From IMG/VR virus record IMGVR_UViG_2541047778_000011: 25,141 nucleotides of DNA; one strand, 5' to 3'. Source of the stretch: a virus (Duplodnaviria > Heunggongvirae > Uroviricota > Caudoviricetes). This document shows positions 18,723-19,502 of the stretch, one piece after another (positions within the stretch are counted from its first letter, which is position 1; every line of letters begins with the position of its first letter). The notes under the pieces were generated by a model. It saw only the letters and a list, made by a program, of their open reading frames with translations, searched no databases and was not told the origin of the DNA. A program made the translations under genes and the position numbers.

Positions 18723-19502
18723 ATGCCAACACCAAATCCTCTGGCACCGGTGAAAGGGGCCGGGACCACACTGTGGGTTTATAACGGGAGCGGCGACCCT
18801 TATGCAAACCCGCTTTCAGACAATGACTGGTCGCGTCTGGCAAAAATTAAAGACCTGACGCCCGGCGAACTGACCGCTGAGTCCTATGACGACAGTTATC
18901 TCGATGATGAAGATGCGGACTGGACCGCGACCGGGCAGGGGCAGAAATCCGCCGGAGATACCAGCTTCACGCTGGCGTGGATGCCCGGAGAGCAGGGGCA
19001 GCAGGCGCTGCTGGCGTGGATGCCCGGAGAGCAGGGGCAGCAGGCGCTGCTGGCGTGGTTTAATGAAGGTGATACCCGTGCCTATAAAATCCGCTTCCCG
19101 AACGGCACGGTCGATGTGTTCCGTGGCTGGGTCAGCAGTATCGGTAAGGCGGTGACGGCGAAGGAAGTGATCACCCGTACGGTGAAGGTCACCAATGTGG
19201 GCCGTCCGTCAATGGCAGAAGATCGCAGTACGGTGACGGCGGCAACCGGTATGACCGTGACGCCTGCCAGCTCCTCGGTGGTGAAAGGGCAGAGCACCAC
19301 GCTGACCGTGGCCTTCCAGCCGGAGGGCGCAACTGACAAGAGCTTCCGTGCGGTGTCAGCGGATAAAACAAAAGCCACCGTGTCGGTCAGTGGTATGACC
19401 ATCACCGTGAACGGCGTTGCTGCAGGCAAGGTCAACATTCCGGTTGTATCCGGTAATGGTGAACTTGCTGCGGTTGCAGAAATCACTGTCACCGACAGTT
19501 AA
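18723..19502 (+). CDS. V: Major tail tube protein gpV, carrying an in-frame 13-codon tandem duplication
   Basis: 259-aa product [33 protein letters not shown]..., near-identical to lambda gpV except for the duplicated segment [14 protein letters not shown]-terminal Ig-like domain present. Confidence 0.92.
18972..19058 (+). repeat. Perfect 39-bp direct tandem duplication (2 copies plus a 9-bp third-copy stub) inside V
   Basis: CTGGCGTGGATGCCCGGAGAGCAGGGGCAGCAGGCGCTG occurs at 18972..19010 and again at 19011..19049, followed by CTGGCGTGG at 19050..19058. Confidence 0.95.

What the first reader, a model, noticed from the sequence alone, without database searches (positions are those of the whole stretch)
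18972..19058. Perfect in-frame 39-bp tandem duplication in the major tail tube gene V
Two identical 39-bp units plus a 9-bp stub (CTGGCGTGG) insert 13 residues ([13 protein letters not shown]) into the N-terminal tube-forming domain of gpV. The unit is bounded by a 9-bp direct repeat that is already present once per unit, the expected footprint of slipped-strand or unequal-crossover duplication. Perfect identity suggests a recent event. A 13-residue insertion in the tube domain could affect tail polymerisation, or mark relaxed selection on a defective prophage. It could also be an assembly artefact.
Basis: seen in the sequence. Interest (0 to 1): 0.55.

Follow-up and report, generated by a model that had tools for sequence, protein, structure and literature searches.

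The report
Slippage duplication in prophage tail-tube gene
The perfect 39-bp in-frame duplication in the lambda-type tail tube gene V is real, but it is an ordinary replication-slippage allele at a short direct repeat that has arisen repeatedly in E. coli prophages, here inside a prophage that is already defective.

Summary
In detail: window 18971-19058 holds two perfect 39-bp units plus a stub. This adds 13 residues ([13 protein letters not shown]) to the N-domain of gpV (259 aa against 246). The bounding repeat is 10 nt (GCTGGCGTGG), not 9.

It is not an assembly artefact. The junction occurs in 5 of 5,426 complete E. coli genomes, and the exact protein is indexed in 190 blocks of a public assembly collection. 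It is rare: about 0.1% of V copies, and none in 50,697 phage records.

It is recurrent. With one unit removed, the window's allele is 100% identical to V of UTI89-type strains, and B36's two-copy allele is 100% identical to V of ST131 strains. The perfect duplication sits on four V alleles differing at 27-49 of 741 nt. The same repeat pair also gives the reciprocal 13-aa deletion (15 or more backgrounds) and a three-copy allele.

Other recurrent V length variants map to other 8-11-nt direct repeats.

In the window, an IS3-family element replaces the whole early region, so the prophage is defective.

The effect on tail assembly is untested. The insert lies at the strand-to-helix junction on the tube's outer face.

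Verdict: an ordinary microhomology-mediated indel. Low interest.

The parts
18723..19502 (+). Gene V (lambda-type major tail tube protein), two-copy allele, 259 aa
   Evidence: ORF. Full-length match to lambda gpV structures 6p3e, 8iyk and 2k4q with one 13-aa gap. Pfam PF16461 + PF02368 precomputed for the identical protein P0009. RefSeq WP_021532037.1 in four genomes.
18971..19009 (+). 39-bp unit, copy 1
   Evidence: 100% identical to copy 2.
19010..19048 (+). 39-bp unit, copy 2 (the extra copy relative to the single-copy allele)
   Evidence: Removing one unit gives a 741-nt gene 100% identical to UTI89 V.
19049..19058 (+). 10-nt stub, the third copy of the bounding direct repeat GCTGGCGTGG (the others are at 18971-18980 and 19010-19019)
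   Evidence: family D4. The single-copy allele has two copies 39 nt apart and the deletion allele has one.
18320..18715 (+). Gene U (tail terminator), upstream neighbour
   Evidence: phage minor tail U family.
19518..20356 (+). Genes G and T (tail assembly chaperones, overlapping frames), downstream neighbours
20349..22910 (+). Gene H (tape measure protein)
719..2028 (+). 1310-bp IS3-family insertion sequence that replaces the prophage early region. It is context showing the prophage is defective.
   Evidence: Terminal inverted repeats read. Annotated as an IS3 family transposase in sister genomes. UTI89 has repressor, cro, cII, O, P, ren and full ninB at this place. The window aligns to UTI89 only from window 2026 onward.
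1..717 (-). Integrase remnant lacking its N-terminus
   Evidence: Annotation of the 99.9% identical loci.

Best explanation
The feature is a microhomology-mediated tandem duplication. The normal V gene carries the 10-nt sequence GCTGGCGTGG twice, 39 nt apart, because the protein has Leu-Ala-Trp twice with the same codons. During replication the nascent strand (or a template switch in a post-replication gap) mispaired between the two copies. Backward misalignment copies the 39-nt interval twice, giving this allele; forward misalignment deletes it. Because 39 is a multiple of 3, the product stays in frame and is annotated as a 259-aa tail tube protein. The same event has happened independently in several lambdoid prophage lineages. 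In this lineage it is inherited clonally in a prophage at icd that has lost integration, immunity and replication genes to an IS3-family element. It can therefore no longer make phage, and V is presumably free of purifying selection. Shown: the anatomy, the ancestral allele, recurrence, the reciprocal products and the defective context. Inferred: the slippage or template-switch mechanism itself, and that the allele is neutral for the host. For tail assembly I judge it more likely impaired than not (roughly 60:40). The extra 13 residues duplicate the last three residues of the strand at 79-86, the turn, and the first half of the single outer-surface alpha-helix.
For: - **Anatomy:** perfect 2.3-copy array bounded by a 10-nt repeat.
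- **Ancestral state:** the allele with one unit removed is 100% identical over 741 nt to V of UTI89, IHE3034, NU14, APEC O18 and others, which carry the same prophage at icd.
- **Independent recurrence:** B36's two-copy allele differs from the window's at 49 of 780 nt. With one unit removed it is 100% identical to V of EC958, JJ1886 and other ST131 strains. The perfect duplication is found on four DNA backgrounds differing at 27-49 of 741 nt, with flanking differences as close as 21 nt upstream and 12 nt downstream of the array. Further protein backgrounds are P0011, P0013, P0148 and P0136.
- **Reciprocal and further products at the same repeats:** a 13-aa deletion on 15 or more backgrounds, including the ST131-type protein background (P0124) and one that reads as lambda gpV minus the 13 residues (P0123, by eye). 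The deletion DNA keeps a single copy of the repeat. There is also one three-copy allele, P0121.
- **Generality:** every recurrent V length class maps to one of the gene's longest direct repeats (8-11 nt), while one-off indels have 0-5 nt of microhomology.
- **Not an artefact:** 5 complete genomes and 190 collection blocks, including a metagenome assembly.
- **Defective context:** an IS3-family element replaces everything from the int N-terminus to the ninB N-terminus. B36's prophage also lacks an early region and has an IS66 element in a tail assembly gene.
- **Mechanism background:** repeats under 30 bp act through slippage or short-homology illegitimate recombination in E. coli genomes (PMC2884548). 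RecA-independent template switching yields both deletions and expansions (PMC7145654).
Against: - No experiment or read-level data show the mechanism directly.
- Recurrence by very short gene-conversion tracts (120-200 nt or less) cannot be formally excluded. Transfer of the allele by recombination did happen in one case (L014 and L018).
- All other late genes in the window are intact ORFs, so relaxed selection is inferred from the lost early region, not from visible decay of the structural genes.
- The order of the IS-mediated deletion and the duplication is unresolved: in complete genomes the IS/ninB junction was found only in three of the four sister genomes that carry the duplication.
- The structural models were too low in confidence to judge the functional effect.
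Confidence: 0.88

Rival explanations
1. Assembly or sequencing artefact: the genome really has one unit.
For: Tandem repeats can be miscounted by short-read assemblers.
Against: The junction is present in five independently sequenced complete genomes from different laboratories, countries and hosts, and the exact protein is in 190 blocks of the assembly collection. From the sequence, a single-copy gene has only 10-nt repeats, which cannot create a spurious 39-nt duplication in a de Bruijn graph; artefacts would tend to collapse copies rather than add them.
Confidence: 0.01
2. A single origin: the duplication arose once and reached the other V alleles by homologous recombination or gene conversion between lambdoid prophages, not by recurrent mutation.
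For: Lambdoid prophages recombine freely. In L014 and L018 the two-copy allele sits in a block of more than 5 kb that is identical to the window, inside an otherwise 95-96% identical prophage. The roughly 120 nt around the array is invariant among alleles, so short tracts would leave no trace.
Against: B36, UMEA 3271-1 and the P0013 allele differ from the window 21 nt upstream and 12-90 nt downstream of the array, so tracts would have to be 120-200 nt or less each time. B36's allele with one unit removed is identical to that of its clonal relatives. The reciprocal deletion on 15 or more backgrounds and the other repeat-bounded indels show that these sites mutate recurrently.
Confidence: 0.08
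3. A selected, functional variant: the 13-residue insert on the outer face of the tube is tolerated and gives an advantage, for example an altered tail surface or escape from a host system that recognises tail tube protein.
For: [quoted passage not shown] The allele persists in a sizeable lineage and recurs.
Against: It is absent from all 81 deposited phages that carry this V region, although that number gives little statistical power. Both complete-genome contexts are defective prophages. Clearly destructive deletions arise at sister repeats at similar or higher frequency, which fits mutation pressure without selection. The model places the first copy as disordered, with lower confidence across the N-domain (weak evidence).
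Confidence: 0.04
4. A phase-variable (contingency) switch: unit number toggles at high frequency to turn tail production on and off.
For: Alleles with 0, 1, 2 and 3 units exist. A perfect 87-nt array should be unstable.
Against: The unit is in frame, so copy number does not switch the reading frame. The two-copy state is stable across a clonal lineage and 190 collection blocks. Two-copy alleles are about 0.1% of V copies. The single-copy gene has only 10-nt repeats, far below typical contingency arrays.
Confidence: 0.02

Closest known systems
Bacteriophage lambda gpV (major tail tube protein; PDB 2K4Q N-domain, 6P3E/8IYK tube, 2L04 Ig-like C-domain)
   Same: Full-length homologue at about 92-96% identity, with the same N-terminal tube domain and Big_2 Ig-like C-domain and the same U-V-G-T-H gene order.
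   Different: Carries 13 extra residues, a second copy of lambda residues 84-96 at the junction of the strand at 79-86 and the outer alpha-helix at 91-102. It is encoded in a defective prophage, not a viable phage.
Short-homology (microhomology) mediated deletion and duplication by replication slippage or RecA-independent template switching in E. coli (PMC2884548; PMC7145654; classically the Albertini 1982 lacI deletions and Lovett's misalignment work, cited from my own knowledge)
   Same: The unit is bounded by a 10-nt direct repeat that exists in the parent sequence. Both a deletion and expansions are recovered at the same repeat pair, the events recur, and the repeat is far below the roughly 30-bp RecA threshold.
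   Different: Nothing mechanistically different was seen. This is a natural-population example in a prophage structural gene rather than a reporter assay.
The single-copy V allele of the UTI89-type prophage at icd (WP_001351266.1)
   Same: 100% identical outside the extra unit. Same integration site, with the same iss, porin and sitABCD cargo and the same late operon.
   Different: UTI89 keeps the early region (repressor, cro, cII, O, P, ren, ninB) and has one unit. The window lineage has the IS3-family replacement and two units.

Membership tests
Lambda gpV-type major tail tube protein | Full-length sequence homology to gpV, with an N-terminal tube domain (PF16461) and a C-terminal Big_2 Ig-like domain (PF02368) | tested here: met
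   E = 4e-145 to 6p3e over residues 1-258 with one 13-aa gap. Pfam domains are precomputed for the identical protein P0009.
Lambda gpV-type major tail tube protein | Position in the tail operon between U and G/T/H | tested here: met
   ORFs and the annotation of 99.9% identical loci.
Lambda gpV-type major tail tube protein | Polymerises into hexameric rings around the tape measure protein to form a working tube | not testable with these tools
   The AF2 monomer models had low confidence (pLDDT 56 against 66 for the control). No multimer modelling or experiment was possible.
Microhomology-mediated tandem duplication (slippage or template switching) | Head-to-tail copies whose unit starts with a short repeat that recurs immediately after the last unit | tested here: met
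   GCTGGCGTGG at 18971, 19010 and 19049.
Microhomology-mediated tandem duplication (slippage or template switching) | A parental single-copy allele exists that already has the two short repeats and is otherwise identical | tested here: met
   The allele with one unit removed is 100% identical to V of UTI89 and many others.
Microhomology-mediated tandem duplication (slippage or template switching) | The reciprocal deletion and further expansions occur at the same repeat pair | tested here: met
   233-aa deletion alleles on 15 or more backgrounds, and the deletion DNA keeps one repeat (L009). There is also a 272-aa three-copy allele, P0121.
Microhomology-mediated tandem duplication (slippage or template switching) | Independent recurrence | tested here: met
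   B36 (ST131) against the window lineage. Four DNA backgrounds in all.
Microhomology-mediated tandem duplication (slippage or template switching) | RecA independence and dependence on replication | not testable with these tools
   This needs genetics. It is inferred from the 10-nt repeat length, below the roughly 30-bp RecA threshold cited in PMC2884548.
Phase-variable contingency locus | A change in repeat number switches expression by shifting the frame or promoter spacing | tested here: not met
   The unit is 39 nt and in frame. All copy-number alleles are full-length ORFs.
Phase-variable contingency locus | High-frequency heterogeneity within a clone | tested here: inconclusive
   No reads were available. 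The two-copy state is identical in every lineage member examined, which argues for stability.
Assembly artefact | Not reproducible across independent assemblies and technologies | tested here: not met
   Reproduced in 5 complete genomes and many draft and metagenome assemblies.

The most novel reading that the evidence does not exclude
The 10-nt repeat pair makes V a reversible copy-number site (0, 1, 2 or 3 units). Lambdoid prophages or their hosts might exploit it, for example to toggle production of functional tails, or to change the outer face of the tube and escape a defence that senses tail tube protein. On this reading the two-copy form would be a tolerated, selected surface variant rather than debris.
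Probability: 0.03. Interest if true: 0.55.

Novelty: new member of a known kind. Interest (0 to 1): 0.15.

Why it matters
On its own it matters little. It is a rare in-frame slippage allele of a structural gene in a prophage that can no longer produce phage. Two modest points of value remain. First, annotators should be aware that 'phage tail protein' entries of 259, 233, 227 and 219 aa are slippage alleles of a 246-aa gene, not distinct proteins. Second, the V gene of E. coli lambdoid prophages offers a natural catalogue of recurrent microhomology-mediated deletions and duplications (four or five repeat pairs, dozens of independent backgrounds). That catalogue could be used to estimate relative slippage rates against repeat length and spacing in wild genomes, and to date prophage inactivation.

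Tried and rejected
- **First similarity searches were uninformative.** The 151-nt queries ranked single-copy alleles on top because two overlapping pieces were joined. I replaced them with a junction-specific 42-mer.
- **Reciprocal-deletion junction:** no hit in complete E. coli genomes. The deletion was found only in the larger protein collection.
- **GTDB representative genomes:** 0 hits for the junction. IMG/VR gave 1 hit, on the same V background as UMEA 3271-1.
- **Hairpin or quasi-palindrome explanation for the hotspot:** the DNA fold of the single-copy region is not significant (z = -1.6, 13 of 200 shuffles fold as well). Rejected.
- **Order of the IS-mediated deletion and the duplication:** the IS/ninB junction occurs only in three genomes, all of which carry the duplication. 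Unresolved.
- **AF2 models of the two-copy protein and a single-copy control:** the N-domains had low confidence because the alignment is shallow, 73% identity or more. I used them only for secondary-structure placement and ran no fold search.
- **Literature searches** for strain MS20673 and for prior descriptions of tail-protein tandem duplications found nothing.
- **Metagenome scan:** not run, as it was judged unnecessary.

Full report
**Observation.** Tandem Repeats Finder gives 18971-19058, period 39, 2.3 copies, 100% matches and no indels, and the raw sequence shows the unit twice followed by a stub and then TTTAAT. It lies in frame in a 780-nt gene, 18723-19502 on the + strand. That gene sits between U and G/T/H, and its product matches lambda gpV structures (6p3e, 8iyk, 2k4q and others) over its full length at E = 4e-145, with a single 13-residue gap. 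One detail needs correcting: the bounding direct repeat is 10 nt (GCTGGCGTGG at 18971, 19010 and 19049), because the preceding G is shared.

**Is it real, and how common?** My first similarity searches were misleading, because single-copy alleles were reported as full-coverage two-piece matches spanning only 112 nt. I then used a junction-specific 42-mer that single-copy genes cannot seed.
- It hit 5 of 5,426 complete E. coli genomes and 0 of 50,697 phage records.
- About 3,500 genomes (4,206 places) and 81 phages carry this part of V.
- The junction is absent from GTDB representative genomes and present once in IMG/VR.
- The exact 259-aa protein (P0009) is on 164 contigs by one count and in 190 collection blocks by another, including a metagenome assembly.

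An assembly artefact is therefore excluded for practical purposes. The allele is rare, at about 0.1% of V copies.

**Where the window comes from.** Four of the five complete genomes (SCU-116, MS20673, AH19K002, Eco_23-2678) carry the identical V gene in the same prophage next to icd, and the window is 99.86-99.9% identical to them over 25 kb. It is 100% identical to GCA_000457855.1 over the 16.4 kb available. The few differences among lineage members cluster at 10.3-15.6 kb and 21.1-23.3 kb, which looks like recombination patches. The 5.5 kb around V is identical in all of them.

**Ancestral state and recurrence.**
- Deleting one unit in silico gives a 741-nt gene that is 100% identical to V of UTI89, IHE3034, NU14, APEC O18 and many others.
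- UTI89 has the same prophage at the same site with the same cargo: iss, a porin gene and sitABCD.
- The fifth complete genome, B36, has the same perfect duplication on a V allele that differs at 49 of 780 nt. With one unit removed, that allele is 100% identical to V of EC958, JJ1886 and other ST131 genomes.
- At the DNA level the perfect duplication is on four V alleles that differ from one another at 27-49 of 741 nt. The nearest flanking differences lie 21 nt upstream and 12-90 nt downstream of the array.
- Further protein backgrounds exist: P0011, P0013, P0148 and P0136.
- In one case the allele clearly moved by recombination. L014 and L018 carry it in a block of more than 5 kb that is identical to the window, inside a prophage that is otherwise 95-96% identical and has a different J and lom region.

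**Reciprocal and sister events.**
- The same repeat pair yields the exact reciprocal 13-aa deletion (233 aa, '[12 protein letters not shown]') on at least 15 backgrounds. One of these (P0124) is the ST131-type protein background, and P0123 reads as lambda gpV minus the 13 residues.
- The deletion DNA keeps a single copy of the repeat.
- A 272-aa allele (P0121) has three units.
- A script that aligned every length variant among the hits to the single-copy gene showed a clear pattern. Every recurrent class maps to one of the gene's longest direct repeats, while one-off indels have 0-5 nt of microhomology.

| Direct repeat | Spacing | Alleles produced |
|---|---|---|
| GCTGGCGTGG (10 nt) | 39 nt | 13-aa deletion, duplication, triplication |
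| GCAGGGGCAG (10 nt) | 57 nt | 19-aa deletion (227-aa alleles) |
| CGGTGACGGCG (11 nt) | 81 nt | 27-aa deletion (219-aa alleles) |
| GTACGGTGA (9 nt) | 51 nt | 17-aa deletion and 17-aa duplication |
| TGACCGTG (8 nt) | 51 nt | 17-aa deletion |

**Mechanism.** This is the signature of short-homology slippage or RecA-independent template switching. In E. coli genome comparisons, repeats below about 30 bp are attributed to replication slippage, also called short-homology illegitimate recombination (PMC2884548). Template switching in post-replication gaps produces both deletions and expansions (PMC7145654). A hairpin-assisted explanation is not supported: the DNA fold gives z = -1.6.

**Context and selection.**
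- In the window, a 1310-bp IS3-family element (719-2028) joins an integrase remnant (1-717, - strand) to a 5'-truncated ninB.
- The whole early region that UTI89 retains (repressor, cro, cII, O, P, ren, full ninB) is gone. The prophage cannot integrate or excise, replicate, or regulate itself, so V is presumably not under selection for phage function.
- B36's prophage is also a remnant: it has no early region and an IS66 element in a tail assembly gene.
- I could not order the IS-mediated deletion relative to the duplication. In complete genomes the IS/ninB junction was found in three genomes, all of which carry the duplication.
- All other late genes in the window are intact ORFs, so there is no wider decay yet.

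**Likely effect on the protein.**
- In lambda gpV the N-domain is a beta-sandwich flanked by one alpha-helix. [quoted passage not shown]
- The single-copy control model reproduces a strand at 79-86 and a helix at 91-102.
- The duplicated unit therefore corresponds to residues 84-96: the last three strand residues, the turn, and the first half of the helix.
- In the two-copy model the strand stays at 79-86 and the helix forms from the second copy (105-114). The first copy (87-104) is coil, and confidence there drops from about 57-71 to about 26-42.
- Both models are low in confidence (mean pLDDT 56 and 66) because the alignment is shallow, so this is weak evidence.
- My inference is that the insert is an extra amphipathic segment on the outer face. 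It might loop out harmlessly, or it might compete with the native helix for its groove. I lean towards impaired assembly (about 60%), but this is untested.

**Comparison with what is known, and verdict.** The gene is a member of the lambda gpV family, and the alteration is a textbook microhomology-mediated tandem duplication. Literature searches found no prior description of this allele, although it is in RefSeq as WP_021532037.1, 'phage tail protein'. It is a real, rare, recurrent and most probably neutral polymorphism of a gene in a dead prophage. It is a new instance of a well-known kind of event and of low interest. Its main value is as part of a natural catalogue of slippage alleles in V, and as a warning that the 219-, 227-, 233-, 259- and 272-aa 'tail proteins' are indel alleles of one 246-aa gene.

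Noticed in passing
window 719-2028 (with 1-717 and 2026-2439): A 1310-bp IS3-family element with terminal inverted repeats (TGAACCGCCCCGGG...CCCGGGGCGGTTCA) joins an integrase remnant to a 5'-truncated ninB. The entire early region seen in the UTI89 prophage is missing. In MS20673 a further 266 nt of the int remnant is absent.
   Followed up: partly
window 18723-19502 and proteins P0015-P0110: V of E. coli lambdoid prophages shows several recurrent in-frame indel classes: 19-aa, 27-aa and 17-aa deletions and a 17-aa duplication. Each is bounded by an 8-11-nt direct repeat (GCAGGGGCAG, CGGTGACGGCG, GTACGGTGA, TGACCGTG) and each is found on many allele backgrounds.
   Followed up: yes
L014 10001-10780 and L018 5806-6585 (equivalent to window about 15.7-21 kb): The identical two-copy V sits in a block of more than 5 kb that is 100% identical to the window, inside a prophage that is otherwise 95-96% identical, with different upstream genes, a 1230-aa J and lom. 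This is mosaic transfer of the allele by recombination.
   Followed up: partly
window 10303-15626 and 21144-23260: All 24-28 differences between the window and its sister genomes cluster in the terminase-portal-protease genes and in H/M. This suggests recombination patches from other prophages rather than clock-like divergence.
   Followed up: partly
window 4844-5926 (-), 7717-8010 (-): Host-benefit cargo lies inside the prophage: an OmpC-family porin gene between Q and the lysis genes, and iss (a bor homologue) after Rz. Sister genomes also carry sitABCD beyond the window's right end.
   Followed up: no
window 19922-19940: G and T overlap in different frames, as in lambda, where gpGT is made by a programmed -1 frameshift. 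The slippery site was not examined.
   Followed up: no
proteins P0001-P0006 (320-401 aa): Very long 'V' proteins on short contigs contain large internal duplications of 74-155 aa whose two halves differ slightly (for example MAEDRST against MAEEHST). They look like chimeras of two V paralogues in one genome, arising either from unequal recombination or from assembly joins.
   Followed up: no
window 17914-17946: An imperfect 15-nt tandem repeat (2.2 copies, 83% matches) lies inside gene Z.
   Followed up: no
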